A stretch of DNA of 64,000 nt from Planctomycetota bacterium (GCA_028280785.1 JANQLF010000116.1:87377-151376); one strand, 5' to 3'; positions 27,997-59,305 are shown, numbered from the stretch's first letter. The notes: generated by a model from the letters alone, not told the origin. Translations and numbers: made by a program.

Positions 27997-28001
27997 GTTG
28001 A

Positions 28002-29009: not shown

Positions 29010-29051
29010 GTTTGCTTCCTCCAAATACGCACACCAATACGTGTAAAAAAC

Positions 29052-45400: not shown

Positions 45401-45892
45401 TGGATGCATGAATTTAACAGCAATGCGCCGATCTAAATTATTATCTTTGACAGCAAATACTTGCCCAGTAGCACCAGTGCCAAGTAATTTAATAATTTCA
45501 TAGCGACCGGGAACACCACTTTCATCTAAACGTTCTGCGGCTTCCTTTTCGCTAATCGGAATCATTTTTTCGAAGATGTCGGACTCAATTTCATTGTCCC
45601 AATCTTCTTCTTTTGTTTCACTTTCGCGTTCAAAAGAGTCTAAGGTGCTTGGATAAAAATCTAAAAACTTTTCACCAAGCGTATGGTCGTCTAGTGTTTC
45701 TAATAATAAATCTTTTAATTGTTTATCGACGATTGGACTGTTGTCGTCGTCTTCAGCGAGGGTTCGCGTTAAGTCGCCAATAGTCTTAGCATTGAACTCA
45801 TCATCGGTGATGGTTTGGGCCAGCGCTTTCTCGTAATTTTTACGAAAACTATCCGGATCAGATTCAGTAGCAGACTTAATAGAAATTGTCAT
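42413..45892 (-). CDS. membrane Ser/Thr protein kinase, paralog of the downstream kinase (same architecture)
   Basis: 1159 aa. It has LGTGATGQVF, IAVKF, AHNDIKPGN, LLDWGTS and GTPMYMSPEQ, a TM helix (IMVIILCAIMVGVFGYMIY), and matching beta-sandwich and TPR-like regions. It overlaps the next kinase by 8 nt. Confidence 0.9.
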   Translation of the reverse strand: MTISIKSATESDPDSFRKNYEKALAQTITDDEFNAKTIGDLTRTLAEDDDNSPIVDKQLKDLLLETLDDHTLGEKFLDFYPSTLDSFERESETKEEDWDNEIESDIFEKMIPISEKEAAERLDESGVPGRYEIIKLLGTGATGQVFAVKDNNLDRRIAVKFMHPKDVMNPRKNERFLDEAAVTAKLDHPNILPVHNLDYTDGAVPFFSMRLADGLPLEDIIPKKNYFKGNNIDILLKKINIIYKVCEAMAYAHDKKIAHNDIKPGNIMIGEYGDVLLLDWGTSTTEAQRNKENAKILGTPMYMSPEQARKEVSDEISDIYCIGSTFLHLVTGRFPLYSDDAETFWNLKCDGFYQKLNAEERQRIPPRLAAIIEHCIEPDREKRYQSINDLLADLNAFQKGEPVSVYQDPIADQLKRIYRKNKKTIMVIILCAIMVGVFGYMIYLEKLKELSEWKPIYNENFDNYSTNKLASEWKLIYIPGWNYNNLTELDLKDEKVFRIEDGKLQGISGNFTGAVNLRSTTRSAGNLKVSWEITPSNTAHDMNMFIGGNDRFNAYLFHIGGFGRIDQVRLTKYRSVQSLDIYTFEEALKPFTTYKFTAQKIGPKVQLFIDDKLIIDYTDPIPYVGPQHETFGFEMTQNHPHALDNIRVWDQPLPQKISPIIIGDDYFSHGHFQLSLNTYDDIRTTYTNSDMAPIALFRSAQCLIELEKPIDARIRLKQFMSQYPDHEYVIHALINLCGLYLNVDDWDSLHSALTKYSEQFKNRSELRWLHNAISDAIQKKHGISRDMREVDDVITPVKSAHKEMDLYNNLIGQITEKENMNFYRNLIGVLKARGHLDEILALYGESKTTVGILIRMGNLDKATAISPTGQSVIRAHIINGNWSYVKPLLYRPDINWNNIINSKEIAELVAPHADKPHYCHELLNKPEPKSPEEILAEEPHNFEALVQLGYFEKAKESYEKKLTSYTPSWKYAQLLSVMGKEDEVINSTNQDHSGVTKTKAYATKALRLWMKGDREMALEIFKQAQVYQGKELSDYIGFRIAPIILRWHVGMIDDKGLRKELEMLGDNYGETLKLTIKYMLGDLSESEFINAPAVKNNNLADAKIVTEPELQLRSLNALIARDYKKALALFIEQEYTYDMDRQLLRQYFIDELSKRVKND

Positions 45893-46416: not shown

Positions 46417-47799
46417 ATGGCACAGACCTTTGCGTGTCCACATTGTGAGGCTACGTACCGTGCGCTGCCAACTCTGGTAGGGCGTAAGGTGCGTTGTAGC
46501 TCGTGTAAAAACGTATTTCAGTTACAACATACCGGTATTGCTATTAAAATTGGTGAGGACGGTAAAAAATCCGATCCCGCACTCGAAAAACAAAAAGGTG
46601 CACTTGAAACTAAAAAACCGGATGCAGGCAAACAGGTAGGGGCCGTTCCGCAAAAACAAACAGCAGCCGCAAAAACGCGACCACAGACCCGAGCGATACG
46701 ACGAAAAACCGAACGTATTCAAAACATGCGCTCATCTCTTCAAGAAGCAGCGCAGCAGGCCTTGCAAGTTGAAGAAAAAGTTGCTTCTGAACGCATAGAA
46801 AAGAAAGACCTACGAAAACCTTCGAAGGCGAAAGCCAAGCGTGTAACTGATAGTCATGTTGTCACCTTAAGCGGTGCAGCCGAAACCGAACAAAAAGTCA
46901 AACGTTCAATGGGTTATATCCTATTAGGTATTGTAGGCTTTTTTGTTTGTGTGTATTTCCTCATGGGTAGCCAATCTCCTCAAGAACAAGCCCTATCGGA
47001 CTTCTCCCAACCTATCGAAGATGAATATTTAAAACATCCGCTACGCATGGATGGCTATGGTAAGCGCTTGTGGCGAACTAAACGTCAGTTTAACGAGCCG
47101 GTACCGATTGTCTTGAACGTGAATAGGGCGACGTGTGCGAGTGTTGTTAGTTATGAATGGCCAGAGGTGGTTGCCTTTATGGCCAAGACTATCGAGAAAA
47201 TGCAAGTCTATGATCTGTTGCCAATCTGGATTAATCCAGGTGATAAAGAGCGCATCGATAAATTATGGAAAGACTTTCCAAATAAAACTAATATAGCAGA
47301 GTTTTATGGATTACTTAAAAAAGAGGATGTTAAATATTATGCAATGAATGAATTGCCGAGTTTAATGCTTAATCAAGGAATTCCGCAATCGGTGGTCTAT
47401 GTGACTAGTATGTTATTACTGCCTGGTCTACCCCAGGAAAATAATGAAAAAATATTTGGCGGAGATATGCCGATTGAATTATTAATAACCGAATTTAATG
47501 GTGTCAGTGGTAGCCGATTATTTGACTCTGGCGCGGCATATGACATAGAAACATTGCCGCATTATTCGGGTTTATTGGTTGGTTTTACTGGTATTTCGGG
47601 TGAATCAGGTGAATATTGGAAAATATTGGATGTGCGCGTTGCTAAAAATATGAGTTACTATTATGAATTAGCAGAAAACCCATTAATTAAATATGCAAAA
47701 ATAAAAAGCCAATCACTGCGCGTAAAAATGCGCCAGCAAGCGGAAGAAGATGGATTAATCGATCCTTTTACCGGCGAATTAATGGATCCGAATAATTAA
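46417..47799 (+). CDS. zinc-ribbon (MJ0042-type CxxC...CxxC) membrane protein with unknown C-terminal domain
   Basis: CPHCEATYRALPTLVGRKVRCSSCKNVF is the zinc ribbon. A K/Q/A-rich linker leads to one TM (ILLGIVGFFVCVYFLM), followed by about 270 aa in which I recognised no motif. Confidence 0.7.
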   Translation: MAQTFACPHCEATYRALPTLVGRKVRCSSCKNVFQLQHTGIAIKIGEDGKKSDPALEKQKGALETKKPDAGKQVGAVPQKQTAAAKTRPQTRAIRRKTERIQNMRSSLQEAAQQALQVEEKVASERIEKKDLRKPSKAKAKRVTDSHVVTLSGAAETEQKVKRSMGYILLGIVGFFVCVYFLMGSQSPQEQALSDFSQPIEDEYLKHPLRMDGYGKRLWRTKRQFNEPVPIVLNVNRATCASVVSYEWPEVVAFMAKTIEKMQVYDLLPIWINPGDKERIDKLWKDFPNKTNIAEFYGLLKKEDVKYYAMNELPSLMLNQGIPQSVVYVTSMLLLPGLPQENNEKIFGGDMPIELLITEFNGVSGSRLFDSGAAYDIETLPHYSGLLVGFTGISGESGEYWKILDVRVAKNMSYYYELAENPLIKYAKIKSQSLRVKMRQQAEEDGLIDPFTGELMDPNN

Positions 47800-47906: not shown

Positions 47907-47938
47907 GCAATTTATGCGTCTCTATTGCGGATGTGCAT

Positions 47939-48469
47939 ATGGATCAAATTGAACAAATTATTCAACGATATTGTGATGGCGAATGTAGCCCTGAAGAATC
48001 GAGCGCGGTGCAAAAGCTGATTGAACAAGACCAAGAAGCACAACGCATCTATCACTTTTTAACATCACTCGATAACGACCTACTCGACCTGCCTTTGGTC
48101 GATCCAGAACCCCAAATTGAACACATCATGAGTGCGATACCGGAGTGGACACCATCCCGGCATGTGCGTATCAATACTGGCTTTATAGCTGTGATGGCGC
48201 TATTATGCGGTATGGCTCTGACGACAATTGGAATCCATTATAATTCAGATGGTAGTTCCATAAGTACGCTCATGATAGTGACTTGTATGTGTGTCTTGGG
48301 ATCGGGACTGGCTTTGGTCCTGAGTCTGCCCGGACGCAGCCCAACGCTTCAACTCATCAAACGTGCCTTTAGTCGTTCTGTAGACTTTACTTACATGCAA
48401 TCAACGAGTTTACGCTGCGCTGCAGTCTTATTGTTGGTTCTGGCTATCTGGACTTGGAGTGGGGTATGA
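47939..48469 (+). CDS. membrane protein with anti-sigma-like N-terminus (no adjacent sigma factor)
   Basis: The track start at 47933 is GTG; ATG 47939 gives 176 aa. QRYCDGECSPEESSAVQKLIEQD resembles the anti-sigma N-terminal helix but lacks the zinc ligands. It has three hydrophobic helices and is ATGA-coupled to the next gene. Confidence 0.55.
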   Translation: MDQIEQIIQRYCDGECSPEESSAVQKLIEQDQEAQRIYHFLTSLDNDLLDLPLVDPEPQIEHIMSAIPEWTPSRHVRINTGFIAVMALLCGMALTTIGIHYNSDGSSISTLMIVTCMCVLGSGLALVLSLPGRSPTLQLIKRAFSRSVDFTYMQSTSLRCAAVLLLVLAIWTWSGV

Positions 48470-49059
48470 ATCTACTGCGCCGTGGCTTTACCTTGATCGA
48501 AATGCTGGTGGTAGTAGCCATCATTCTCCTCTTGGCATCACTGTTGGTGCCGGCGGTCATGGGTTCACAAGAGTCATACGACAAGATGGCTGCTACCGAC
48601 CTAGTTGGTGGCTTGCTCATCGCCCTGAATATTCAAAAGCTCGAATCCAAGGGATACCCGTTACCGGATAATCAAGAAAGCACCAATAAATCCGACGCCG
48701 GTTACTACATCGGTGTTTTTCGTTATGACCGTAGTGATAAAAATCCGGGTTTGGTTAATCGCCTAGTCGAATCACAAAAATTTTCCTTCGATGCAGCCAA
48801 TATGCTGAACGATGATAATATTTTAATTGATGGCTGGGGGAATCCTATTCATTATGTGTTAGGTAATGCCGCTAACAGCAAAAATTTAGCAAGCTATGAC
48901 GACACTAAACCGCAAGATTTGAATAAACCAAAATTTGCTGACGTAGCACCATTAGAATCTGATTGGAATACCGGAGACATAGCTGGTTACCCTTATATTT
49001 ATTCCGAAGGCGCTGATGCGGGCGCTGGCGATGAATCATGGATTTATCCAAAGGATTAA
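48466..49059 (+). CDS. GspG-like major pseudopilin (prepilin-type N-terminal cleavage/methylation domain)
   Basis: GGAG SD precedes the start. MNLLRRG|FTLIEMLVVVAIILLLASLLVPAV carries the cleavage site. DGWGNPIHYV matches the GspG DPWGNPY motif. 197 aa. Confidence 0.85.
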   Translation: MNLLRRGFTLIEMLVVVAIILLLASLLVPAVMGSQESYDKMAATDLVGGLLIALNIQKLESKGYPLPDNQESTNKSDAGYYIGVFRYDRSDKNPGLVNRLVESQKFSFDAANMLNDDNILIDGWGNPIHYVLGNAANSKNLASYDDTKPQDLNKPKFADVAPLESDWNTGDIAGYPYIYSEGADAGAGDESWIYPKD

Positions 49060-49061
49060 TT

Positions 49062-50162
49062 ATGCGCCGACAACAACAGGCATTTACTTTAGTAGAATTA
49101 CTCGTGGTCATGGCGATCATGGCATTATTGGGAACGATGTTGTTTGCGATGATTGGTAGTGCTGATGATAAAAATAATGAATTGGAAACCGATTTATTAA
49201 TTTCACGTTTAGTCGCAGCCTCAGAACAATTTGAAAATTTAACGGGCGATATCGCTCTGCCAACGGGTGATCGTACCGATCCCTTAAGTGGTTCTTGGTA
49301 TCCAAGCTCAAATACTGGAACTTGGGAGAATCAGCAATTATGGTGGCGTTTTAGCACCGAGATGACTGATGCTGATCGAACAGCTGCAGAAGCCAATGCA
49401 TTGACTGAAGATATTAAGGCGGATCCCTATCAAAGTGAAAGTTATTTAAAAAATAAATATCCAACACTCAGTGGTTGGCAGCGCATTGCAAAAAAAGAAG
49501 AAGCACTTGACGTTGTTTCTGATGCTGAGGCAGATGATTATAAAGGAACGCACGCTGGCTCTTGGGGTACCGTTACAAATGCCACTGCCTTAGCGAATGG
49601 GGCAAGCGGTGATGTCCCTGATCCTTATGATGGCCATTTTACCAAGCGCGGTACGGTGAAACGCAAAATCTTACTAATGCGCGGTGCTATTGCGCGTGAC
49701 ATCGGTATGCGCAAGTATCAAACCATGCCGATACTTGAAGTAAATGATATCGGCAAAGATTTTCTTGAAGATGATACCGTCAAGGATTTATGGGGTAATC
49801 CACTGATTTACATAGCCCATTCAACACGTGGTGTGAAATATGTAAAACCTTGGAGATGGGGCTGCAATGCCTTGGCCATCGGTGCAAACCCAGGTGGGCG
49901 AATTGAAGTAGACGACCGTAATCAAGATGGTGTGGCAAACGATAAAGATTGGATCGTCGAGCCGACTGTGAATAAAAAAGGTGACTGGGATGAAAGTGGT
50001 GCCATCGATTCAGATGATTGGGATAATATGTTGTATAATGCGCGCCCGTCTAACGGCCGTGGTGTTTATATAGCGAGTGCTGGTGAAGACGGTTTGTTTG
50101 ACTGTCGTCGCACCCAACCAGTCAACGAAGATAACATTGAGAATAAACTCGAGGACCAGTAA
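49062..50162 (+). CDS. enlarged GspG-like pseudopilin (366 aa)
   Basis: AAGGA SD precedes the start. It has QQQA|FTLVELLVVMAIMALLG and a second copy of the G-type motif (DLWGNPLIYIAHS), with an SAGEDG tail. About 200 aa are inserted between the N-terminal helix and the G-core. Confidence 0.75.
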   Translation: MRRQQQAFTLVELLVVMAIMALLGTMLFAMIGSADDKNNELETDLLISRLVAASEQFENLTGDIALPTGDRTDPLSGSWYPSSNTGTWENQQLWWRFSTEMTDADRTAAEANALTEDIKADPYQSESYLKNKYPTLSGWQRIAKKEEALDVVSDAEADDYKGTHAGSWGTVTNATALANGASGDVPDPYDGHFTKRGTVKRKILLMRGAIARDIGMRKYQTMPILEVNDIGKDFLEDDTVKDLWGNPLIYIAHSTRGVKYVKPWRWGCNALAIGANPGGRIEVDDRNQDGVANDKDWIVEPTVNKKGDWDESGAIDSDDWDNMLYNARPSNGRGVYIASAGEDGLFDCRRTQPVNEDNIENKLEDQ

Positions 50163-51482
50163 ATGTTGAAAAAAGCATTTACGCTTATCGAAATGCTCGT
50201 CGTGGTGTCCTTGATTGGATTGCTATCGACAATGATAGTGTTCTTGTTCGAAGACTCTGCGGAAGATGCGCTGAGTAAAAGTGCCCTTGAATTAAAATCG
50301 GTAATGGATCGGGCGCGCAGTTTGGCGATCAAAACAGGTCGTATGCATGCGGTTGCCTTTCATGTCGAAAATGCCGGTGATGGAAGTGTCTTAAAAAACT
50401 TTTCTGAAGTTGATGATGAAACATTTCCAGGACGTCATTGGTATTGCATCATCGGACCAGACTTCTCCAACGTTGGAACAACAGCGGGTTGGAGTAGAAG
50501 TTTAACCAAGATACCCGTCGCTAACGATGGCCAAAATGGCAACCTTTTATCTTTTTATAGCTTGTCTGATTACATTGAATGCATGAAGAGTGTGCAAGTT
50601 GGGCCGCGTCATTATTTATTGCCTGGCGTGCGTTTTTTAGCCCTTGGTGATGAGGATAAATTATATTCAGGTTACTCACATGCGACGTATCCACGACCAT
50701 GGTTTGGTTATTATGATGATACGACGAATACCTTACATCCGTGGGGAGCTTGGGATCCAGATATAGACACCACCTTTCAATTCCCAAGTACCGGTTTGGA
50801 TTATCAGGGTGAGGATCAATTACCGACTTATTATGCACCCTACGATACGCTTATAAATCCAACCGAAGTGTGGGGTCGCATTCATCCCAATGCAACCGCA
50901 CCTGATATGGAATTTGTTACTGATGGTAGCGAGGATAGATCCTGCAATATTTATCGCGGATTTGTTCAAGGATTCATTGGCCCTGATACCTATTACTTAG
51001 CGTCTACCCCAACGCGTAAAGTACCACGCCCATTAATTAATGCCTATTGGGGTGATTTTATGATTCTCTATGATGCTAAGGGTACAGCGCGCACTGTTGT
51101 TGGTGATGGTCGCGATACCTATTTCGATGCGATTAAATGGTATAGTGGTCGTCACAGCGACCGTGGTTCAAGCGCTAATTTCGGTCGACGTGACATGGGC
51201 ATCGGCAATAAAGTTGATTACACAGGTGGCTTTTATGTAACCATCTGTCGCGATATTGAAGATCACGAACAATTATATTCAGAAATTAATAGCACGACAG
51301 GTGCCTTTGATTTTACCAAATTCAAAAGTGTTGAAGATGCATTAGAATCGATAACGCCATATAAGCGCATATTTGTGTGGCGAGCGACCGGCTTCTCTGA
51401 GATACGCGATATGTCGCATCCACAATGTCAGATCGAAGCTGATGACTTGCTCCAAAAGGATCCGTTCCCCAATGGCTATTAA
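50163..51482 (+). CDS. enlarged GspH/FimT-like minor pseudopilin (439 aa)
   Basis: MLKKA|FTLIEMLVVVSLIGLL is followed by ELKSVMDRARSLAIKTGRMHAVAF, a GspH-type pattern. The start directly abuts the previous stop (TAAATG). Confidence 0.7.
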   Translation: MLKKAFTLIEMLVVVSLIGLLSTMIVFLFEDSAEDALSKSALELKSVMDRARSLAIKTGRMHAVAFHVENAGDGSVLKNFSEVDDETFPGRHWYCIIGPDFSNVGTTAGWSRSLTKIPVANDGQNGNLLSFYSLSDYIECMKSVQVGPRHYLLPGVRFLALGDEDKLYSGYSHATYPRPWFGYYDDTTNTLHPWGAWDPDIDTTFQFPSTGLDYQGEDQLPTYYAPYDTLINPTEVWGRIHPNATAPDMEFVTDGSEDRSCNIYRGFVQGFIGPDTYYLASTPTRKVPRPLINAYWGDFMILYDAKGTARTVVGDGRDTYFDAIKWYSGRHSDRGSSANFGRRDMGIGNKVDYTGGFYVTICRDIEDHEQLYSEINSTTGAFDFTKFKSVEDALESITPYKRIFVWRATGFSEIRDMSHPQCQIEADDLLQKDPFPNGY

Positions 51483-51909
51483 TCGACTCGGGCGTACGAG
51501 CGAGGGTTTTACCCTGATCGAAGTAGCTATGTCGATTGCTATTTTGAGCTTTGGTTTAACGGCTATTTTAATTGTGTATTTAACCTCACTACGTTGGGCT
51601 GAGGAAATTCGTATTGATTTAACCAGTTTGCATTCAGCTCGAGCTGCTATTTATGACGCCGGTGTCTTAACCGATGAATTTGATGTATCGGCAGGTTTTG
51701 ATAACTCTGACACGCCGGCCAGTGGTTATGTCAATGATTATTATATTGTGCGCACCTATACTGAAGATCCATTCGCAACGGGCCTAGCAACAGCAGGTAC
51801 CTATGTCGATGTTGAAGTAAAAGTGTATTACGGCGGAACCGATTTAACCGGTCGCTTGGTACAAACGATCAATTGTTCGCAAATTATTCACTCGGATTAT
51901 AATCCATGA
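51472..51909 (+). CDS. GspI-like minor pseudopilin (145 aa)
   Basis: The internal ATG 51472 gives MAINRLGRTSEG|FTLIEVAMSIAILSFGLTAIL. The track start at 51373 lies inside the previous gene. Confidence 0.65.
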   Translation: MAINRLGRTSEGFTLIEVAMSIAILSFGLTAILIVYLTSLRWAEEIRIDLTSLHSARAAIYDAGVLTDEFDVSAGFDNSDTPASGYVNDYYIVRTYTEDPFATGLATAGTYVDVEVKVYYGGTDLTGRLVQTINCSQIIHSDYNP

Positions 51910-53204
51910 TGCAATCTCGAGCAGCGTTTACGATAATTGAAATTTTAGTCGCGTCGACTTTGTTTACGATGCTGATGGGCGTGGCTGCATTTGCCTTTCA
52001 ACGTTTAAATGAAGGCGGTCAGTATGCTCAGCGAATTATCGAATTACACGAGCGTTCAGACAGTATTATTCGTTTGATGGAGGAAGATATGCGCGCCTTG
52101 CAACAGACCGTTGCCATCCATATCGATACCGACAGTGCTTTGCGCTCATTTACATTTATGCGCCAAACTACCAATCAAAATGATGCTGGTTTTGGTGGGA
52201 ACGATATTGTAGGAAGTTTAACTGGTCTTGGCCAAGAAGAAGCACAACGCGGTGATGTGTCGTGGGTCAAATGGCAGTGGGGTGATGGTGATATTAAGCG
52301 CGCCATTTCACGTCCACATTTTACCTTTAATGGTTGGACCGGTGATCGACGTTACACTGATAATACGAAGCAATATATTAAAAATGTGAATTTTGCCACA
52401 TCTGGTACAGCCTATTACGGTATGCATCGCAACGGCATTACACCGACACCGCAAAAACAGTTTTTATATTTTTATGGCAATGGCAATTTTAGAACAGTTA
52501 ACAGCGATGGTTCGGTTAACGCACAACCTGGTGATCAAATTCATGTTTATAAGAAAGTGGCTGCTACTGATTTTAATGGTAATAATTGTGTGCACTTTGA
52601 TGAATTAACCAGTAAATGGCGAGTGGATAATGATTTTAATCATTGGTATACGACCTATTTGGTTGGTAATGATGAGCAGCTTTCTAATCAAGCTTTTGCC
52701 GTGATGAATGCTGATGGCAAGACCTTTAATAAAGATCGATTAAACCTCGAAGGTTGCGATGATAATGATGGTAATGGTAATTACTATTATCCAGACCGTA
52801 CACAGGCTTTGTTTACTGGTGTAGAATTTATGGAAATAAAATTCTTTAAACGCAATGGTACAGAAATTGATGCTGGCGATGATGATGACACGATTAATGA
52901 CGGTGCGACAACAATAGATATCAATGGAATAGCAGACGACGCCAGTGGTGTTGGTATAGAAAAACGACCAGTTGTATTACGCATTACCTTTTTACTGCAT
53001 TCGATTGACCGTAATGAAATCGATGAAGGCGACTACGATAATGACGGTGATGACACGGAGTACTTAGTACAAGCGGTGAGAGATATGGTTGCAGCAGAAG
53101 GACTGGCAACTCGTCAGGAACAAATTGATTCATTTAAAAAGCATGCGCAAGGTTTGAGCGCATCGAGTGTTGTTGTTAATTATGCAATTAAGTTGGGGCT
53201 ATAG
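51906..53204 (+). CDS. enlarged GspJ-like minor pseudopilin (432 aa)
   Basis: It is ATGA-coupled. MMQSRAA|FTIIEILVASTLFTMLMG is followed by IIRLMEEDMRALQ, a GspJ-type helix. Confidence 0.6.
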   Translation: MMQSRAAFTIIEILVASTLFTMLMGVAAFAFQRLNEGGQYAQRIIELHERSDSIIRLMEEDMRALQQTVAIHIDTDSALRSFTFMRQTTNQNDAGFGGNDIVGSLTGLGQEEAQRGDVSWVKWQWGDGDIKRAISRPHFTFNGWTGDRRYTDNTKQYIKNVNFATSGTAYYGMHRNGITPTPQKQFLYFYGNGNFRTVNSDGSVNAQPGDQIHVYKKVAATDFNGNNCVHFDELTSKWRVDNDFNHWYTTYLVGNDEQLSNQAFAVMNADGKTFNKDRLNLEGCDDNDGNGNYYYPDRTQALFTGVEFMEIKFFKRNGTEIDAGDDDDTINDGATTIDINGIADDASGVGIEKRPVVLRITFLLHSIDRNEIDEGDYDNDGDDTEYLVQAVRDMVAAEGLATRQEQIDSFKKHAQGLSASSVVVNYAIKLGL

Positions 53205-53212
53205 GTGATACA

Positions 53213-55774
53213 ATGATGAACCAATCTTCAACACGATTAGCAAGTTCGCTTTTATTAGTTATCTCCATGATTGTCTTAATGGTAACGGTTGCGACTGCCT
53301 TTATGACCACCATGTCGCGCCAACGCGGAACTGCGGTTTTATTAGCAGCGCGTACCCGTGCAGAGATTGGCATGGAGCATGCCACGGCAAAACACATAAA
53401 ATTATTATTAGAAGATTACCGCGACACCTCTTCGAAGTATTCAAAAGCAAGTGGTTCAAGCGGATCAAGATGGTATGTCGATAGCCTTGCCATCGGTGAT
53501 CCGGATGGTGATCCGTGGACCGAAGACGGAACGCCATTGGGTTCCGGTTATCGCGATACCAATAATATGGTAAATATTGGTAATAGTGTCAATTTAGCCG
53601 ATATGATGAATCGTAGTTCTGGTGATAGCCGTAATGAATACTATGGGATGTCATCAGAAATTTCACGTTGGCATAACATCGAATTTTACGACGATTTTTT
53701 CCAACCCATTGAAATTGATCCTAGTTTACCTGAGGCACAAAAAGCACTACTGCGTAAACGCGCGCGCTATGTGCTGCGCTATAGCCATAAAACCATGGAC
53801 TGCGATGCACAATTAACTGTTAATAATAATTATCCAGGTGCGCCTATTTTATATAATTCAGCCTCACCGGATGATTATAATCGTTATCAAAGCTATCTGC
53901 GTCACTTTGGTCGCAGCATTAAAAGTATGACGGCGATGATATCGAATTTAGATGGCAGACAGATGCGTTCGGATGATGGCGATTTTAGTGATACCAAAGA
54001 CCAATTTGATTATGAAGAGCTCAGCATTTGGGCTGACGGTTTGCCGATGGATTGGGATGGCGATGCGAGCCATCGACGCATGGTTAACCTGCTTGATGAT
54101 TTACGCCTACGCCGCGAATCGGCATTTCGTATGGATCCACGCACTTGGGTCGAAAATACTAATGGATTGGATACCAAAACACCGCATATGAAAGGTTCCA
54201 ATCGTATAACAACCTGGCACAGCATCGGCCGTCATCATGGCGGGACCGGTATGAATGGCGCCTATTATCATCCGCATTTTCAATTTACACCCTACGGTGC
54301 TAGCATGTTGGGCACGCCGCTTGGTGGGACAGATGAATGCACGGTGCCATGGCGGGTTAATATGCTTACCTGTAATTATCGGGCCTTAGCATCTATTTAT
54401 GGTGGCCTATCATCACATATTAAACATGCGAGTTCAGGTGTCCCTTATTTGGCTGATCACGCGAGCAAGAGTAGCTGGTGGAGTAGTGGAGCTGGTGCAA
54501 ATGCAGATTTATTTGGTCCCGGTTATCCAGAACCATTTCCACTCGGTTTTGAAGACGGTAAAGATATCCATTTAATCGGTGATATTAATAAAAGCGTACT
54601 CGCCGGAACAACCTGGCCTGATTATGACAATGGTTATTTGGCGAATAAACAGCCATTTTTTGGTGGTGGTCTGAGTGTCGATGATAAGGGTGTGGCGGCA
54701 TATAAAAATGGTACGTGGATGTATTATCCAGCTTATGCGCATAGCTATTGGGCTGATGTTTTTCAAGCCTTTGATTTAACACGTCGTCGTATTATTTCTG
54801 CATGGGAAAGCCCGCGTAATCTCTACACCAATCATCAGAGAAATAGCGAGGAATACTTTTTTGTGATGCAAAATCCTGAAACGGGGGCTAATTACAGTGG
54901 CGGTCATGAGCCATCGTGGATAGATCCTGCGACCGATGATCCAGACACGATGATGAATCAAATTATTATGGAGACCTGTCGCATACTTGGTGAGGGTTAT
55001 ATCAGTCCGCATTCAGGAGCGACACCGGCGCAATCGTGGAATCGCTATGATAATTCGGCTCTTAGTTTATTGGGTGGCGGAGAAGCATTGGTTGGATTGA
55101 ACATGAGATGGGATTGGAAGGATCGTCCTGCCAAGCGCTGTAAATTAAGTCTACAAGCTAATACCCGAGCCATGGAATTTGTACTGAATGATTGTTTGAT
55201 TAGTTTATACGGCAAAGCAAATCCACATTATAATCCGGCTTCTGATAATCTGAGAGATATTGCTGTTGACTTTAATGGTGATGGTTATGCCGAAAGCACG
55301 GTAACAGGTTGGTATAACACGGCGACAAACGCCCGTGTTTGGTCATGGTGGTGGAATGGTCTTGGCCCTGAGGCTTTTCCAGCCAACGGCGATTGGATGA
55401 AACAAGGTACATGGATACGCTTTTATCAAAACGGAGATATAGAGCGTAAACGTGGTGGTTCTTGGATCGCGCTCTCTGGCGCCGAAAAGACCGAGTTTTT
55501 ATCAGTGAATAATTTCTTACTAAACGGTAATTGGGTGTCTGACGGCAGCAGTCCGGTGAGACCATTTTCTTATACTGGCCGTTTATTCATCGGTAAGAGT
55601 AAAAAATTCCAAGTGTTTATGCGCACTGAAGTTTTAAATATCCCTAAACGCAAAGTTATGGCAGCAACTAATCGTACCTTTGTCTATAATATAGATCCTA
55701 ATAACGACGGTGATTTTGAAGACTCACACATTGCATCACAGCAAGAGTTCGAATTACAGACGACGGACTTATAA
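53213..55774 (+). CDS. giant GspK-like minor pseudopilin (853 aa)
   Basis: AGGTGA SD precedes the start. It has a hydrophobic N-terminal helix without the Phe/Glu processing motif (SSLLLVISMIVLMVTVATAF), followed by ARTRAEIGMEHATAKHIKLLLED, as in GspK. It occupies the position directly after the I and J homologs. Confidence 0.5.
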   Translation: MMNQSSTRLASSLLLVISMIVLMVTVATAFMTTMSRQRGTAVLLAARTRAEIGMEHATAKHIKLLLEDYRDTSSKYSKASGSSGSRWYVDSLAIGDPDGDPWTEDGTPLGSGYRDTNNMVNIGNSVNLADMMNRSSGDSRNEYYGMSSEISRWHNIEFYDDFFQPIEIDPSLPEAQKALLRKRARYVLRYSHKTMDCDAQLTVNNNYPGAPILYNSASPDDYNRYQSYLRHFGRSIKSMTAMISNLDGRQMRSDDGDFSDTKDQFDYEELSIWADGLPMDWDGDASHRRMVNLLDDLRLRRESAFRMDPRTWVENTNGLDTKTPHMKGSNRITTWHSIGRHHGGTGMNGAYYHPHFQFTPYGASMLGTPLGGTDECTVPWRVNMLTCNYRALASIYGGLSSHIKHASSGVPYLADHASKSSWWSSGAGANADLFGPGYPEPFPLGFEDGKDIHLIGDINKSVLAGTTWPDYDNGYLANKQPFFGGGLSVDDKGVAAYKNGTWMYYPAYAHSYWADVFQAFDLTRRRIISAWESPRNLYTNHQRNSEEYFFVMQNPETGANYSGGHEPSWIDPATDDPDTMMNQIIMETCRILGEGYISPHSGATPAQSWNRYDNSALSLLGGGEALVGLNMRWDWKDRPAKRCKLSLQANTRAMEFVLNDCLISLYGKANPHYNPASDNLRDIAVDFNGDGYAESTVTGWYNTATNARVWSWWWNGLGPEAFPANGDWMKQGTWIRFYQNGDIERKRGGSWIALSGAEKTEFLSVNNFLLNGNWVSDGSSPVRPFSYTGRLFIGKSKKFQVFMRTEVLNIPKRKVMAATNRTFVYNIDPNNDGDFEDSHIASQQEFELQTTDL

Positions 55775-55804: not shown

Positions 55805-57991
55805 ATGCGCTTTTTCATTATATCGATTTTAACCATGACCTTCGCACTGCTCAGTGCAGCAACAGCGCCAACACAGTGGCCGCCACACTGGTGTAGTGAT
55901 ACCAATGGTGGTGCCCAGGGTACCAATCAAGACGACCATACGGGTCTTGATTATGGCACTGATTCTTGGGGATATTGGGCCAACTTGGATATAGAGGATG
56001 GCAGCGGTAATCCATTAGCGACTATCGAAATGCGTTTCATCGTTCCCGGTGATGCACCGAATAATGGTTACTACATGGGTGCCCGCCCTGGTGAAGAAGG
56101 TGCACGTATTCAGGAAATGGGCATTAACACCGCGAATATTGGACCAGTGGCATCGGAAAAATTTCGTCATTGGGTTCCACATACAGAGATTAACGGTGGA
56201 CAACCATTTTGGGTTTCTTCGTTGGAATGTACCCAGCAAGTTTGGGAAGAAATGAATAAAATCAGTACACCCGGATTCGAGGTGAAGCTCGCAAAATGGA
56301 ATCGATCCGAGCGCAATGTAAATATTGCAGATCGTAGTGATTTACATGAACGTGACACCGCAGCTTTCCCAATCGATTTAGGTACCTTCACTGATTCAGT
56401 GAACCACAGTGATTATCCAATTGATCTTACTGAAATTGGAAACTGGACGACTGCAGTTACCGCGACCTTTCGTACGGCATTTGATTTACATAAGGAATTT
56501 AGAGCAGTAGAAAGTCAAACATTTGATGACTGTAAAAATTTCTGTGAGAATGATTTAACCAATCAAGTGCGTTCGCAATCAGGTTCAGCGACGGTTTCTA
56601 TTCGCTTACCGACTGAAAAGGAATGGGAGTTTATCTGTCGTGGAGGAACTGAATCGGCTTTTTGGTGTGGTCCGATATTAAGTGGTGTTCAATTTCGCAT
56701 GGAAAATTTAACCGTTGCCAAAACTGACTTTATGTTCCCTTTTGATAGCGCGCATATCGATGCCAATATTAAAGATGCACTTGGTGGCGACGGTAATCTA
56801 CACCGCGAATGGTTTTCAGAAGGCAACACCCATATTAATATTACTAATGTATCGTTAGATGGAACAGCTAACTGTGATCATAGTGTGCGTATGGACCTCG
56901 CAGGTAATGTATCGATGTCTGGTGATTTAGAGGCGGTTCCCGTCGTTGCGAATTTTGATGAGCGCTATCAAGCCCATTGGGTACCGAATGAATACGGATC
57001 ACATACGCCAATTTTAATGACCTATACTATGAGTGGCACTGATTATATTCCGGCACCCTATACACCAGTTGGTGCTGGTGTGTATTATCGTTACCTAGGT
57101 ACTGATACCTACGTTTTGTCGACTTCGATTACGGTTGCTAATACAGAAATTGACCGTTCGCATAGTATTTTCCGTGGCAAACGTCAACCAGCCGATACGG
57201 TGCCAGGTGATATAGCTGCTGCTGGTCGACTCGAATATGTTGAGATGGTGCGTGTGAATGTGCGATGTAATTCATCTGGCGTCGAAATGGAAGACGGTCG
57301 CTACACCTATGATTCATTAGGTAATGTACATCCAATTCGTACGCTCTATACGCCAGCCGCGTATCGTCGTGATGGTAAATATATTGGTTCCACTTTCCCG
57401 GACATGGAACGTGGAACACAGAGTAATGAAGATTTTGCTCGTCGCTCTGATTTATCTGATAATCCCGCTGAAGAGATGACGGTTGAAGATTACGTGGTGG
57501 CCTTCAAGCAAGCTTGTGCGACCCATTTAAAACATAAGCCCACCGATGTAAATCCGTGGTATTCAGGGAATAAAAATTACACAGTTACGTATACCGAAAC
57601 TGAATTTGACGTAAACGGGAATCCGGTTGAAGTAACCAAAACTAAAGCTGTAACGGTTACAAAAATTACACCGTATAGTTATCACGCGCAATTTCTTGAA
57701 AACATTAATATTAATGCGACGTTAAACAGTGCGATAACTGCTATCTTGCCAGAAGATCAACTGCGTAATCCATTCGGTCTCTATAATACCCATGGCAATG
57801 TTTCTGAATGGGTCGATACCACTTGGGACGGTTTAAGTGATCATAGCGCTCATAAGACGGGTAAGTTTCAAATGACTCGTGGTGGTTCATGGCGCAATGG
57901 CGCCCAATACTGCCGCAGTTCATCACGCGTTGGTCGCGATGGCAGCAAAGCATATGACGATGTGGGCTTTCGTTTTATATTAACTGATTAA
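55805..57991 (+). CDS. secreted protein with FGE-sulfatase/SUMF1 (C-type-lectin-like) fold split by a large insertion
   Basis: AAGGAG SD and a signal peptide are present. The N-terminal FGE blocks are MRFIVPGD...YYMG...HWVPHTEINGGQPFWVSSLECTQQVW and RLPTEKEWEFICRGGTESAFWCG. The C-terminal blocks NPFGLYNTHGNVSEWV and RGGSWRNGAQYCRSSSR...DDVGFRFI appear only about 350 aa later. Confidence 0.75.
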   Translation: MRFFIISILTMTFALLSAATAPTQWPPHWCSDTNGGAQGTNQDDHTGLDYGTDSWGYWANLDIEDGSGNPLATIEMRFIVPGDAPNNGYYMGARPGEEGARIQEMGINTANIGPVASEKFRHWVPHTEINGGQPFWVSSLECTQQVWEEMNKISTPGFEVKLAKWNRSERNVNIADRSDLHERDTAAFPIDLGTFTDSVNHSDYPIDLTEIGNWTTAVTATFRTAFDLHKEFRAVESQTFDDCKNFCENDLTNQVRSQSGSATVSIRLPTEKEWEFICRGGTESAFWCGPILSGVQFRMENLTVAKTDFMFPFDSAHIDANIKDALGGDGNLHREWFSEGNTHINITNVSLDGTANCDHSVRMDLAGNVSMSGDLEAVPVVANFDERYQAHWVPNEYGSHTPILMTYTMSGTDYIPAPYTPVGAGVYYRYLGTDTYVLSTSITVANTEIDRSHSIFRGKRQPADTVPGDIAAAGRLEYVEMVRVNVRCNSSGVEMEDGRYTYDSLGNVHPIRTLYTPAAYRRDGKYIGSTFPDMERGTQSNEDFARRSDLSDNPAEEMTVEDYVVAFKQACATHLKHKPTDVNPWYSGNKNYTVTYTETEFDVNGNPVEVTKTKAVTVTKITPYSYHAQFLENININATLNSAITAILPEDQLRNPFGLYNTHGNVSEWVDTTWDGLSDHSAHKTGKFQMTRGGSWRNGAQYCRSSSRVGRDGSKAYDDVGFRFILTD

Positions 57992-58000
57992 AACAGGAGC

Positions 58001-59305
58001 ATGTCAGCTCAAAGCGCAACGCTCGGTGTTTTGTGTATAGTACTAACGGCAACGATTATTTCGTTGCCGTTTTTCGTCATGGAAGAAAAGTCAGATACCC
58101 CACAGTGGCTCTCAGATGCACAGCCGACTGTCTCTGGGAAGTCGTACCCCGCTGGAGATATACGTTATAAGCGCATTCCTTTGTGGACCGAAGTAAAACA
58201 GTTACCGCTTATCGCAAATGTGCAGATCCACGATTACGATAAAAATGGGCAAACGGAAGCGATTGTCTGTGACCTTCAACAAAATGCGGTGTTCGCTTAT
58301 CCAATGCAGGCTGATGGCTCATATAAAGAAGTAACGCTGGTAAATGATTTGCGTATGCCCGCGCATTGTACCTTTGCCGATATCAATCGTGATGGGAAAG
58401 AAGATCTCTTAGTTGCAAATCTTGGTGATTTATTTCCTAATAATGAACGCGTTGGCCAAGTGCTATTTTTCGAAAAAACTGAAGCAGGCTATAAGAAGCA
58501 TGTTATTGCTAATCATGTGCGGCGCATTGCTGATATACAGGCTGGTGATTTTGATGGTGATGGCGATCAGGATCTGGTGGTTGCCGAGTTCGGTCACTTT
58601 GAAGGCTCAGTATTTCTACTTGAACAAGTAAAACCATTAACATTTAAACGTCACAACCTACTTATTGGCTGTGGTTCCATACATACGCCGGTCGCGGATT
58701 TTGATGGTGATGGTGACTTGGATATTGCCACCGTGCTTTCGCAAGATGAAGAAGAAGTGTGGATTTTAGAAAACGATGGTAGGGGCCAATTTAAAAACCA
58801 TCTCGTTTACCATAATGCGAATTATGAACTTGGTTGTGGTGGATTGGTTGCAAGTGATGTGGATCAAGATGGTGATGTAGATTTATTACTACCTGCTGGC
58901 GACAATTTAGAGCGATCCATTCATTTTCCCTTACAATTTCACGGCTGTTATTGGATAGAGAATAAAGGATCCTTAAAATTCGAAACCCAACGAATTGGTG
59001 ATTTACCGGGAACCTATGCAGTAGATGCAGGAGATTTAGACCAAGATGGTGATATCGATGTAGTGTTGGTGAGTATGAGCAATGATTATTCCAATCCAAA
59101 TGCAGCGAGCATTGTTGCCTTAATTAATGATGGCGCGCAACAGTTTAAACCTACGCAAATTGACTCAATCCCGATACAACTCATTACCTGTGCTATTGGT
59201 GACCTGAACAACGATGGTAAGAATGACATTCTTGCAGGCGCTCTACGTATTCACCCACCGTTTCGACATATGAGTCGTATTTCAGCGTGGATACAAGAGC
59301 CATGA
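58001..59305 (+). CDS. FG-GAP/VCBS-repeat (integrin-alpha-like beta-propeller) protein, membrane anchored
   Basis: It has an N-terminal TM. Repeated units include ADINRDGKEDLLVAN, GDFDGDGDQDLVVAEF, ADFDGDGDLDIATV, SDVDQDGDVDLLL, GDLDQDGDIDVVL and GDLNNDGKNDIL. Confidence 0.8.
   Translation: MSAQSATLGVLCIVLTATIISLPFFVMEEKSDTPQWLSDAQPTVSGKSYPAGDIRYKRIPLWTEVKQLPLIANVQIHDYDKNGQTEAIVCDLQQNAVFAYPMQADGSYKEVTLVNDLRMPAHCTFADINRDGKEDLLVANLGDLFPNNERVGQVLFFEKTEAGYKKHVIANHVRRIADIQAGDFDGDGDQDLVVAEFGHFEGSVFLLEQVKPLTFKRHNLLIGCGSIHTPVADFDGDGDLDIATVLSQDEEEVWILENDGRGQFKNHLVYHNANYELGCGGLVASDVDQDGDVDLLLPAGDNLERSIHFPLQFHGCYWIENKGSLKFETQRIGDLPGTYAVDAGDLDQDGDIDVVLVSMSNDYSNPNAASIVALINDGAQQFKPTQIDSIPIQLITCAIGDLNNDGKNDILAGALRIHPPFRHMSRISAWIQEP

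What the first reader, a model, noticed from the sequence alone, without database searches (positions are those of the whole stretch)
49062..55774. Minor pseudopilins expanded 2- to 2.5-fold over canonical sizes, including an 853-aa GspK-like protein
The products are 366 aa (G-like), 439 aa (H-like), 145 aa (I-like), 432 aa (J-like) and 853 aa (K-like). Canonical T2SS pseudopilins are roughly 140-150 (G), 170-190 (H), 120-130 (I), 200-210 (J) and about 330 aa (K). The extra mass sits after the conserved N-terminal helix. In the G-like protein it sits between the helix and the DLWGNPLIY core, so it looks like inserted globular domains rather than misannotated fusions. The K-like protein is Trp/Tyr/Asn/Gly-rich (for example WSWWWNGLGPEAFPANGDW), which suggests carbohydrate-binding beta domains. 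In that case the tip of the fibre would carry most of its mass.
Basis: partly seen in the sequence, partly recalled or inferred. Interest (0 to 1): 0.65.

Follow-up and report, generated by a model that had tools for sequence, protein, structure and literature searches.

The report
Oversized pseudopilin tip cassette with lectin-fold partner
This is a real, conserved operon of type II secretion/type IV pilus-like fibre subunits in which four of the five listed proteins are about 2.2-2.6 times the usual size, always followed by a secreted lectin-fold protein; it is an unusual variant of a known machine part, not an assembly error.

Summary
Five back-to-back ORFs of 366, 439, 145, 432 and 853 aa sit at the stated coordinates. 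The first four carry prepilin-type N-termini. Their sizes are 2.5x, 2.6x, 1.2x, 2.2x and 2.6x those of E. coli K-12 GspG/H/I/J/K.

The sizes are not frame errors. The same gene order and sizes recur in at least 12 other loci at 23-68% identity, including at least 7 copies in one MAG.

Homology beyond the N-terminal helix:
- J-like: fold level. All top 23 Foldseek PDB hits are GspJ/XcpW/EpsJ or a Thermus type IV-like pilin.
- K-like and 366-aa protein: profile level, above shuffle controls.
- H-like and I-like: not shown.

- A better GspG homologue (about 200 aa, 48466-49059) lies just upstream and was missed.
- A secreted 728-aa protein with a split FGE-sulfatase (C-type-lectin-like) domain follows K in 10 of 11 loci and belongs to the module.
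- No secretin, ATPase or platform gene lies in the 64 kb, so "T2SS" is unproven.

The carbohydrate-binding idea is untested: no CBM or fold match was found.

Most likely this is an interchangeable priming/tip complex of a type IV filament in a probable PVC-group bacterium. It is a new variant of a known kind.

The parts
47933..48469 (+). 178-aa membrane protein with a weak zf-HC2 (anti-sigma-like) N-terminus. Its end overlaps the start of G1. Membership in the module is uncertain.
   Evidence: Pfam zf-HC2 E=0.006, below the cutoff. It overlaps the next gene by 4 nt. It is not seen upstream of the other cassettes.
48466..49059 (+). G1: ~197-aa GspG-like pseudopilin (201 aa if read from the TTG at 48454).
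   Evidence: N_methyl 28 bits. TIGR01710 GspG E=2.9e-11 over residues 10-70, below the family cutoff. It is 48% identical to E. coli GspG over 61 aa, E=8e-12. Homologues sit in the same position in L004, L009 and L010.
49062..50162 (+). G2: 366-aa enlarged G-type pseudopilin. Relative to E. coli GspG it has about +143 aa between the helix and the D.WGN strand and about +76 aa between that strand and the SAGxDG strand. The second insertion contains EF-hand-like DxNxDG loops.
   Evidence: N_methyl 34 bits. The post-helix profile scores 38.9 against G1 (null 12.8 +/- 2.1) and 26.9 against E. coli GspG (null 11.8 +/- 2.0). EF-hand hits in homologues reach E=3e-4, below cutoffs. Sizes of 328-399 aa are conserved in L001, L004, L009, L010 and L011.
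50163..51482 (+). H-like: 439-aa minor pseudopilin. It is the most conserved member of the cassette. The fold of its globular part was not tested.
   Evidence: N_methyl 21.8 bits. TIGR01708 GspH E=7e-9 over residues 5-66. hhalign against E. coli GspH residues 1-69 gives probability 96%. The 8-locus alignment has 78 invariant columns.
51472..51909 (+). I-like: 145-aa minor pseudopilin of near-canonical size.
   Evidence: N_methyl 24.1 bits. Only weak PilV/XpsI similarity. Homologues of about 140-165 aa (mostly 142-146) occupy the same position in every cassette.
51906..53204 (+). J-like: 432-aa GspJ-fold minor pseudopilin with three low-confidence inserted segments (about 89-116, 137-180 and 217-254) and acidic D-rich loops.
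   Evidence: AF2 model pLDDT 65.3, pTM 0.67. The top 23 Foldseek PDB hits are XcpW, EpsJ and GspJ chains, a chain of the XcpGHIJK filament model, or the Thermus type IV-like pilin TTHA1219. Best hit: E=6e-3, probability 1.0, TM-score normalised to the target 0.53. The family has 14 members, the full-length ones 397-503 aa.
53213..55774 (+). K-like: 853-aa highly divergent GspK-family protein. It has a long N-terminal helix (4-70) without the Glu5 motif, a mixed alpha/beta middle part, and a confidently modelled beta-rich C-terminal ~200 aa that carries the nearly invariant WSWWW[ND]GLGP motif.
   Evidence: AF2 pLDDT 73.5, pTM 0.79. hhalign against the GspK family: probability 94.7-95.6% over ~90 N-terminal columns. 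Post-helix scores are 27.7 and 35.3 against shuffle nulls of 13.3 +/- 2.1 and 9.8 +/- 1.8, pairing D196-D99, N204-N107, N383-N217 and T386-T220. There is no Pfam, NCBIfam or PDB match. The family has 35 close and 165 total representatives.
55805..57991 (+). Secreted 728-aa protein with an FGE-sulfatase (C-type-lectin-like) domain split by a ~360-aa insertion. It is a conserved partner of the cassette and a candidate non-pilin tip or accessory subunit.
   Evidence: PF03781 69.5 bits in two stretches. Only weak domain-level similarity to GldK/PorK. A homologue follows K in 10 of 11 loci where the downstream gene is visible. The only Cys of the C-terminal GGSW...R motif region is not invariant.

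Best explanation
The region is a self-contained cassette, G1-G2-H-I-J-K plus a secreted FGE/C-type-lectin-fold protein. It encodes the subunits of a type IV filament of the T2SS-pseudopilus type.

What is shown:
- All six pilin-like proteins are divergent homologues of GspG/H/I/J/K in the canonical gene order.
- Four of them are enlarged 2.2-2.6-fold by lineage-specific insertions into the pilin cores. The insertions are unrelated to each other.
- The cassette is conserved as a unit and is multicopy in at least one genome.

What is inferred, by analogy with GspHIJK/PilVWX biology:
- H, I, J and K assemble on the inner membrane into the priming complex that caps the fibre. G1, and possibly G2, polymerise underneath.
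- The assembly ATPase, platform, prepilin peptidase and secretin are encoded elsewhere.
- The cap would total about 210 kDa (H+I+J+K = 1869 aa, against 816 aa in E. coli). Its insertions, together with the FGE-fold partner, would form a large ligand-binding head.
- Alternative cassettes would let one machine display different heads, probably for binding or handling polysaccharide substrates.
- K appears to end in its own beta-hairpin plus a terminal strand. It may therefore complete its sheet in cis as T2SS GspK does. How the FGE-fold protein attaches is open.
For: Gene order, prepilin motifs and tight packing.

The cassette is conserved at 23-68% identity in L001-L011 and L014, with sizes kept. 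At least 7 K-like loci occur in one MAG.

Homology of individual subunits:
- J-like model matches GspJ-family structures exclusively at the top of the list.
- K-like and GspK families are homologous at the N-terminus, and their invariant residues pair collinearly beyond it, well above shuffle and reversed controls.
- G1 is 48% identical to E. coli GspG over 61 aa.
- G2 core similarity to G1 and GspG is above the null.
- H N-terminus plus first strand matches GspH at probability 96%.

No inserted module is shared among the proteins.

The FGE-fold protein follows K in 10 of 11 loci. It is unlikely to be a catalytic FGE, because its C-terminal motif region holds one Cys, which L010 lacks.

Precedents in the literature:
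- Modular pilins are widespread (PMC8179133).
- Myxococcus carries multiple minor-pilin/PilY1 sets (PMC7541494, PMC8833165).
- Large non-pilin or pilin-like tip proteins lie next to PilIJK homologues, such as MshQ (~1200 aa) and CpaL (~600 aa). The terminal beta-strand is supplied in cis by T2SS GspK (PMC13533445).

Glycan-related neighbours: sulfatase, GH94, AraC-type regulators and a SASA esterase.
Against: - No assembly machinery gene lies within 64 kb, so filament formation itself is not shown.
- The K-like model has no significant structural neighbour in the PDB, GspK included. Its pilin core is therefore supported only by profile alignments of low absolute probability (2.7-24%).
- The H-like globular part was never tested.
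- Both AF2 models rest on shallow alignments (20 and 13 sequences) and have long low-confidence stretches.
- A ~210-kDa cap may be hard to accommodate in a secretin vestibule (inference).
- Several subunits have Ala instead of Gly at position -1 of the prepilin cleavage site.
- There is no evidence of any ligand. One distant cassette (L013) lacks the FGE-fold gene.
Confidence: 0.6

Rival explanations
1. This is an ordinary T2SS pseudopilus used only as a secretion piston. The insertions would be lineage-specific decorations, for example for contacts with a divergent PVC-type secretin or with cargo. They would have no adhesive or display role, and the FGE-fold protein would simply be a co-expressed secreted substrate.
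For: GspG-H-I-J-K gene order and a GspG-type major subunit. K seems to end in its own terminal strands, as T2SS GspK does (PMC13533445). Neighbouring sulfatases and glycoside hydrolases are typical T2SS cargo. The FGE-fold protein has a Sec-type signal peptide.
Against: At least seven cassettes in one genome is not expected for a single secretion piston. The cassette is never seen next to GspD/E/F in any of 13 loci. The strict linkage of the FGE-fold gene to K, even at about 23% K identity, argues for a structural partner rather than a casual substrate.
Confidence: 0.22
2. The cassette belongs to a retractile type IV pilus of the T4aP or MSHA type rather than to a T2SS. The FGE-fold protein would be the functional equivalent of PilY1 or MshQ, docking by beta-strand addition to K.
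For: The layout of minor pilins followed by a large non-pilin protein mirrors pilVWXY1 and mshDOPQ (PMC13533445). Multiple minor-pilin/adhesin sets per genome are known in Myxococcus. A TPR-cytochrome c gene lies nearby in the window and in L002, recalling TfcP of M. xanthus (PMC8833165).
Against: G1 is closest to GspG, not to PilA-type pilins. K aligns with the GspK family and appears to have its own C-terminal strands. The FGE-fold protein has no PilY1-type domain, and its C-terminus is simply the last strand of the FGE domain. No PilT, PilB or PilQ gene is in the window.
Confidence: 0.15
3. The proteins use the prepilin signal only for membrane insertion and processing. They would act as cell-envelope-anchored binding proteins or enzymes that never polymerise. 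Alternatively, the large sizes are assembly or frameshift fusions.
For: PVC-group genomes are known (from memory, not tested here) to hold very many pilin-like proteins of unknown role. No machinery genes are nearby. K has no recognisable structural neighbour.
Against: The complete, ordered G-H-I-J-K set with subunit-specific homology is the signature of a filament-priming set. The fusion artefact is excluded by size conservation over many independent contigs at low identity and by full-length conservation in the alignments.
Confidence: 0.03

Closest known systems
T2SS pseudopilins GspG/H/I/J/K and the GspI-J-K tip complex (E. coli 3CI0, P. aeruginosa XcpVWX 5VTM/6UTU)
   Same: Same gene order. 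Class III signal peptides on G, H, I and J. K lacks the Glu5 motif. The GspJ fold is recovered for J. The K and GspK families are homologous at the N-terminus, with collinear invariant residues beyond it. G1 is 48% identical to GspG over the helix.
   Different: G2, H, J and K are 2.2-2.6 times larger. No curated GspG/H/I/J/K model reaches its cutoff. K matches no Pfam T2SSK model (PF03934 or PF21687). There are two G paralogues. The cassette is detached from GspC-F/L-O, is multicopy, and is followed by an FGE-fold protein.
Modular or large minor pilins (S. sanguinis PilB and PilC, ETEC CofB, Thermus ComZ, Caulobacter CpaL)
   Same: A pilin module carries bulky extra domains and is thought to sit at the fibre tip. 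[quoted passage not shown] CpaL is a ~600-aa pilin-like tip protein (PMC13533445).
   Different: In those cases usually one subunit carries a recognisable C-terminal module. Here four subunits of one set are enlarged at once by insertions within the core that match no known domain.
T4aP/MSHA minor-pilin operons with a large non-pilin tip protein (pilVWX-pilY1, mshDOP-mshQ); multiple sets in Myxococcus xanthus
   Same: Minor pilins are followed by a large secreted partner gene. Several alternative sets can occur per genome.
   Different: The partner here has an FGE-sulfatase/C-type-lectin-like fold, not a PilY1 beta-propeller. The major subunit is GspG-like. No docking mechanism has been shown.
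Verru_Chthon cassette proteins A-D (NCBIfam TIGR02596 and TIGR02599 seen here; TIGR02598 and TIGR02600 recalled from memory)
   Same: The idea is the same: a multicopy cassette in PVC-group bacteria that combines prepilin-type proteins with one very large protein. This description is from memory. Weak N-terminal hits to models D and C were seen here.
   Different: Scores are far below cutoffs (25 vs 70 bits; 14 vs 256 bits) and cover only the N-terminal helix. Neither the window K-like protein nor ten of its relatives (eight distant, two intermediate) hit any Verru_Chthon model. No paper on the cassette was found in the library.
FGE-sulfatase-fold non-enzymes (T9SS PorK/GldK/GldJ, PvdO)
   Same: The 728-aa partner has a PF03781 domain (69.5 bits) with its best NCBIfam similarity to GldK/PorK (E=4e-12). 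The domain probably serves as a structural or binding fold rather than as a formylglycine-generating enzyme.
   Different: It scores 46 bits against a 350-bit cutoff, so it is not a PorK/GldK orthologue. The domain is split by a ~360-aa insertion. There is no T9SS context.

Membership tests
Type IV pilin-like proteins (class III signal peptide; PF07963 / TIGR02532) | N-terminal [GA]-F-T-L-x-E motif followed by a hydrophobic helix, scoring above the model cutoff. | tested here: met
   G1 28.0, G2 34.0, H 21.8 and I 24.1 bits against a 21.2-bit cutoff. J scores 18.6 bits, just below, although J homologues carry PF07963. K lacks the motif, as GspK proteins do. The -1 residue is Ala in G2, H and J.
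GspG major pseudopilin (TIGR01710 / PF08334) | Full-length match above the curated cutoff. | tested here: not met
   G1 scores 43.5 bits against 88.85 (N-terminal 60 aa only). G2 scores 22.3 bits, and PF08334 gives E=0.096. Core-motif similarity is above the shuffle null, so these are divergent homologues, not family members by the curated criterion.
GspH minor pseudopilin (TIGR01708 / PF12019) | Match to the GspH globular domain. | tested here: not met
   35.9 bits against 80, covering residues 5-66 only. No PF12019 hit in 8 homologues. hhalign against E. coli GspH covers only residues 1-69. The fold of residues 70-439 was not modelled.
GspJ minor pseudopilin (TIGR01711 / PF11612) | GspJ sequence model above cutoff, or the GspJ two-sheet pilin fold. 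| tested here: inconclusive
   The sequence criterion is not met: 14 bits against 64.85. The fold criterion is met at modest significance. The top 23 Foldseek PDB hits are XcpW, EpsJ and GspJ chains, a chain of the XcpGHIJK filament model, or the Thermus type IV-like pilin TTHA1219, with best E=6e-3 and a target-normalised TM-score of about 0.5, from a model of pLDDT 65.
GspK minor pseudopilin (NF037980 / PF21687 + PF03934) | N-terminal GspK helix without Glu5, a pilin core, and an inserted alpha-domain (PF03934). | tested here: inconclusive
   No hit from any curated model; 2 of 50 relatives hit PF03934 only at E=0.033. The N-terminal ~90 columns are homologous to the GspK family (probability 95%, E=1e-8). 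The post-helix alignment pairs the invariant residues of both families and scores 7-14 SD above column shuffles, but its absolute probability is only 3-24%. Foldseek does not retrieve GspK.
Type II secretion system locus | Pseudopilin genes clustered with GspC/D/E/F/L/M/O. | tested here: not met
   None of these domains occurs in any ORF of at least 150 aa in the 64-kb window or in the flanks of L001, L002, L010, L011, L013 and L014. The rest of the genome was not available.
Verru_Chthon cassette (TIGR02596 and TIGR02599 seen; TIGR02598 and TIGR02600 from memory) | Matches to the four cassette models above their cutoffs. | tested here: not met
   Only N-terminal helix hits: model D at 25.3 bits against 70, model C at 14 bits against 256.5. 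No hit for K or for ten K relatives.
PilY1/PilC tip adhesins | C-terminal PilY1 beta-propeller domain, and a C-terminal strand that completes the sheet of the PilK-family pilin. | tested here: not met
   The protein downstream of K has only an FGE-sulfatase domain. Beta-strand addition could not be tested because no multimer modelling tool was available.
Formylglycine-generating enzyme (FGE/SUMF1) | PF03781 domain plus the conserved catalytic cysteine pair (the requirement is recalled from memory). | tested here: not met
   The domain is present at 69.5 bits. The C-terminal motif reads RGGSWRNGAQYCRSSSR, with a single Cys that is replaced in L010. No Cys in this C-terminal motif region is invariant.

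The most novel reading that the evidence does not exclude
The cassette defines an undescribed class of interchangeable giant filament heads in PVC-group bacteria. In this reading, an enlarged GspH-I-J-K cap is built around a ~500-aa region of K that has no known fold. It recruits a C-type-lectin/FGE-fold protein as a new kind of non-pilin tip subunit, functionally equivalent to PilY1 or MshQ but unrelated to them. Genomes would carry many such cassettes to vary what a single type IV filament machine binds, plausibly sulfated or other complex polysaccharides that these bacteria degrade.
Probability: 0.3. Interest if true: 0.65.

Novelty: new variant of a known kind. Interest (0 to 1): 0.47.

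Why it matters
Minor pilins and pseudopilins prime filament assembly and decide what the tip does. Nearly all mechanistic knowledge comes from small proteobacterial subunits.

A conserved, multicopy set in which four subunits are doubled in size and tied to a lectin-fold partner would make three things testable:
- It would show how far the GspHIJK priming scaffold can be loaded with extra domains.
- It would give a model for how one machine could swap heads.
- It would point to a filament-based substrate-capture or adhesion device in poorly studied polysaccharide-degrading PVC-group bacteria.

It also adds protein families that no curated model or solved structure currently covers: K-like (about 165 representatives at 50% identity), J-like, H-like and G2-like.

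Tried and rejected
- Sequence searches of K, the K-family profile and the K-superfamily profile against all PDB chains gave nothing at E up to 10. The G2, J and H profiles hit only the N-terminal helices of full-length pilins.
- Foldseek of the K model against the PDB and BFVD gave no match with E at or below 0.001.
- A Pfam scan of 50 K relatives gave only scattered sub-threshold hits (EF-hand, F5/8 type C, CBM_5_12, T2SSK).
- The Verru_Chthon cassette idea was rejected by the NCBIfam results. No literature on it was found.
- The promoter and terminator scan gave counts equal to the shuffle expectation, so operon boundaries rest on gene spacing only.
- All-against-all BLASTP of the cassette proteins with helices masked found no shared inserted module.
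- Attempts to name the organism failed. The exact-sequence look-ups carry no names, and the contig encoding the K-like protein (P0001) and that of its relative P0004 are not on record for context look-up. The only taxonomic hint is one J-like relative labelled as a Planctomycetes MAG.
- The frame-error or fusion explanation was rejected because sizes are conserved across independent contigs.

Full report
**1. What is there**

On the + strand the window holds a tightly packed gene string, with gaps from -11 to +30 nt between consecutive genes:

| Coordinates | Product | Label |
|---|---|---|
| 47933-48469 | weak zf-HC2, anti-sigma-like membrane protein | - |
| 48466-49059 | 197 aa | G1 |
| 49062-50162 | 366 aa | G2 |
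| 50163-51482 | 439 aa | H-like |
| 51472-51909 | 145 aa | I-like |
| 51906-53204 | 432 aa | J-like |
| 53213-55774 | 853 aa | K-like |
| 55805-57991 | 728 aa, signal peptide, FGE-sulfatase domain | FGE-fold partner |
| 58001-59305 | FG-GAP protein | - |

G1, G2, H, I and J start with the [GA]-F-T-L/I-x-E prepilin motif. K starts with a hydrophobic helix that lacks it. The 366-, 439-, 728- and 853-aa products are also exactly what public gene callers recorded for this contig.

**2. Is the size anomaly real?**

I took E. coli K-12 as a measured baseline: GspG/H/I/J/K are 145/169/125/195/327 aa. In addition, 111 GspK homologues are mostly about 290-390 aa. The ratios here are 2.5 (G2), 2.6 (H), 1.16 (I), 2.2 (J) and 2.6 (K).

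Frame errors and fusions are excluded because the same order and sizes recur on independent contigs at low identity:

- L001: 373-430-142-430-846, followed by a 658-aa FGE protein; its K is 37% identical.
- L002.
- Seven loci of a single MAG.
- L010: 220-328-456-146-447-921-902.
- L011.
- Cassettes around distant K relatives: L014 with 468-165-460-946-563, and a JGI contig with 195-375-543-139-399-1246.

The family alignments are conserved end to end.

**3. Are they pseudopilin homologues beyond the helix?**

No curated model reaches its cutoff. Everything the libraries recognise lies in the N-terminal 60-70 residues. PDB sequence searches see only helices.

*J-like.* An AF2 model built from 13 sequences has pLDDT 65 and pTM 0.67. 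It shows a helix at 10-63 followed by beta-sheets. Its top 23 Foldseek hits in the PDB are XcpW, EpsJ and GspJ chains, a chain of the XcpGHIJK filament model, or the Thermus type IV-like pilin TTHA1219. The best hit has E=6e-3, probability 1.0 and a target-normalised TM-score of 0.53. For the XcpW, TTHA1219 and filament-model hits the alignments span 330-400 query columns against 160-198-residue targets. This indicates a GspJ core interrupted by insertions. The low-confidence segments are 89-116, 137-180 and 217-254.

*K-like.* The AF2 model, built from 20 sequences, has pLDDT 73.5 and pTM 0.79. It shows a helix at 4-70, a mixed alpha/beta middle part and a C-terminal beta-rich region (699-847) with pLDDT near 90. 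It has no significant neighbour in the PDB or BFVD.

Profile-profile comparison with a 36-member GspK alignment gives probability 94.7-95.6% (E about 1e-8), but only over the first ~90 columns. I then removed the helix and ran a permissive hhalign. The best alignments are collinear and pair the few invariant residues of the two families:

| K-like | GspK |
|---|---|
| D196 | D99 |
| N204 | N107 |
| N383 | N217 |
| T386 | T220 |

A further alignment places the GKS-x-x-F strand (S796) on the GspK S-x-x-F strand.

Scores are 27.7 (close family) and 35.3 (superfamily). Column-shuffle nulls are 13.3 +/- 2.1 (0 of 80 reach the observed score) and 9.8 +/- 1.8 (0 of 58). Reversed controls score 15.0 and 16.6.

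I read this as real but very remote homology to the GspK core. The spacing suggests about 70 extra residues between the first two anchors and about 340 between the second and third. The absolute hhalign probabilities are low (3-24%), so this step is supported, not proven.

*G1 and G2.* G1 is 48% identical to E. coli GspG over 61 residues (E=8e-12). G2 and G1 share core similarity (score 38.9 against a null of 12.8 +/- 2.1), and G2 against the E. coli GspG core scores 26.9 against 11.8 +/- 2.0.

Measured from the FTLxE motif, the D.WGN strand lies 91 residues downstream in GspG, 114 in G1 and 234 in G2. From that strand to SAGxDG is 21, 58 and 97 residues respectively.

The register is ambiguous. 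The best local alignment puts GspG's DPWGN...SAGPDG onto G2 316-345 (DDWDN...SAGEDG), which makes DLWGNPLIY an additional upstream strand. The segment in between carries EF-hand-like DxNxDG loops, with sub-threshold hits in homologues.

*H-like and I-like.* The assignment rests on position and on the N-terminal ~65 residues (GspH model E=7e-9; hhalign probability 96% to GspH 1-69). The globular part of H (370 aa) is the most conserved part of the cassette (78 invariant columns) and remains unmodelled.

The insertions of the different subunits are unrelated to one another.

**4. What else belongs to it**

The gene after K encodes a homologue of the 728-aa protein in 10 of 11 loci where it can be seen. 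These include L014, whose K is only about 23% identical. The exception is L013.

Its PF03781 domain is split by a ~360-aa insertion. The C-terminal motif region has a single Cys, which L010 lacks. From what I recall of FGE chemistry, this argues against a working formylglycine-generating enzyme and for use of this C-type-lectin-like fold as a binding or structural unit, as in PorK/GldK. Similarity to PorK/GldK is weak and domain-level only.

G1 homologues precede G2 in L004, L009 and L010. Two ~1150-aa Ser/Thr kinases and a Zn-ribbon protein upstream are shared only with the orthologous locus L001.

**5. What is missing**

No secretin, assembly ATPase, platform, GspC/L/M or prepilin peptidase domain occurs in any ORF of at least 150 aa in the window or in the flanks of the related loci. 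The cassette therefore depends on machinery encoded elsewhere, and calling it "T2SS" is an assumption.

**6. Family size and host**

The K-like profile finds 165 representatives at 50% identity among 1.84 billion proteins. Of these, 35 have E at or below 1e-30, and the distant ones are 900-1250 aa. Two distant members weakly hit the NCBIfam GspK model at the N-terminus.

One J-like relative is labelled as a Planctomycetes MAG. The window's other genes (BatA/MoxR/DUF58 operon, ECF sigma factors, DUF1287, Ser/Thr kinases, glycan-related enzymes) fit a PVC-group bacterium. That placement is an inference.

**7. Mechanism (inferred)**

By analogy with GspHIJK and PilVWX, the H-I-J-K set would prime assembly and cap a fibre of G1, with or without G2. 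The cap would total about 210 kDa. In the model K ends in a hairpin plus a terminal strand (798-809, 814-826, 839-847). This is consistent with the in-cis completion described for T2SS GspK (PMC13533445).

The FGE-fold protein is the obvious candidate for a non-pilin head component, comparable in position to PilY1 or MshQ. No docking evidence exists.

Multicopy cassettes and glycan-related neighbours (sulfatase, GH94, AraC regulators, SASA esterase) suggest exchangeable heads with different ligands. This parallels the multiple minor-pilin/PilY1 sets of Myxococcus.

The composition bias is modest (23.1% against 15.3% W+Y+N+G). The WSWWW[ND]GLGP motif is nearly invariant and lies in a confidently modelled strand. 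However, no CBM or lectin match was found.

**8. Novelty**

Large and modular pilins are a documented, widespread principle (PMC8179133), and large tip partners are known. The new features here are:

- simultaneous enlargement of four subunits by unrecognised insertions;
- strict linkage to an FGE-fold partner;
- detachment from the assembly machinery;
- amplification of the cassette within a genome.

I rate it a new variant of a known kind, of moderate interest.

Noticed in passing
window 55805-57991: A secreted 728-aa protein whose FGE-sulfatase (C-type-lectin-like) domain is split by a ~360-aa insertion. A homologue follows the K-like gene in 10 of 11 related loci. The C-terminal motif region has one Cys, which L010 lacks. 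The mature N-terminus carries a conserved P-x-TWPP-x-W motif.
   Followed up: partly
It is 48% identical to E. coli GspG over 61 aa and is conserved in L004, L009 and L010. It is the likelier fibre-forming subunit.
   Followed up: yes
window 38986-45892 (- strand): Two paralogous ~1150-aa Ser/Thr protein kinases (one with TPR repeats) are transcribed divergently from the cassette. The same arrangement occurs in L001, and a kinase also lies near the distant cassette L014. They may regulate the cassette.
   Followed up: no
window 46417-47799 and 47933-48469: A 460-aa MJ0042-type Zn-ribbon membrane protein, also found upstream in L001. It is followed by a weak zf-HC2 anti-sigma-like membrane protein whose end overlaps the G1 start by 4 nt.
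   Followed up: no
window 59287-60483 (also L002 9608-10783): A TPR plus cytochrome c (CIICH) protein lies two genes downstream of the cassette. A noncanonical cytochrome c (TfcP) is encoded in a Myxococcus minor-pilin/PilY1 cluster (PMC8833165). This may be coincidence, since L001 lacks the gene.
   Followed up: no
L003-L009 (MAG CBDUFM01, SRR22808126_binner23_Refined_68): One MAG carries at least seven K-like loci. In L007 the K-like gene is split into two ORFs (317 + 506 aa), which is either a frameshift pseudogene or an assembly error.
   Followed up: partly
window 49062-50162 (G2 residues ~242-345): G2 has two D-x-W-[GD]-N strands, at residues 242 and 316, with EF-hand-like DxNxDG loops between them. 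The J-like protein also has D-rich loops (DDDDT, DYDNDGDD). These may be calcium sites, as in GspG; the GspG calcium site is recalled from memory.
   Followed up: partly
window 16669-29024 (- strand): A BatA / vWA / DUF58 / MoxR-ATPase operon that includes a 1738-aa PA14-domain protein and a 1046-aa protein with no Pfam match.
   Followed up: no
L013, L014 and a JGI contig (sample 3300059473): Distant K-like relatives of 946-1246 aa sit in the same type of cassette, next to sulfatase, GH94 and AraC-type regulator genes. L013 lacks the FGE-fold gene.
   Followed up: partly
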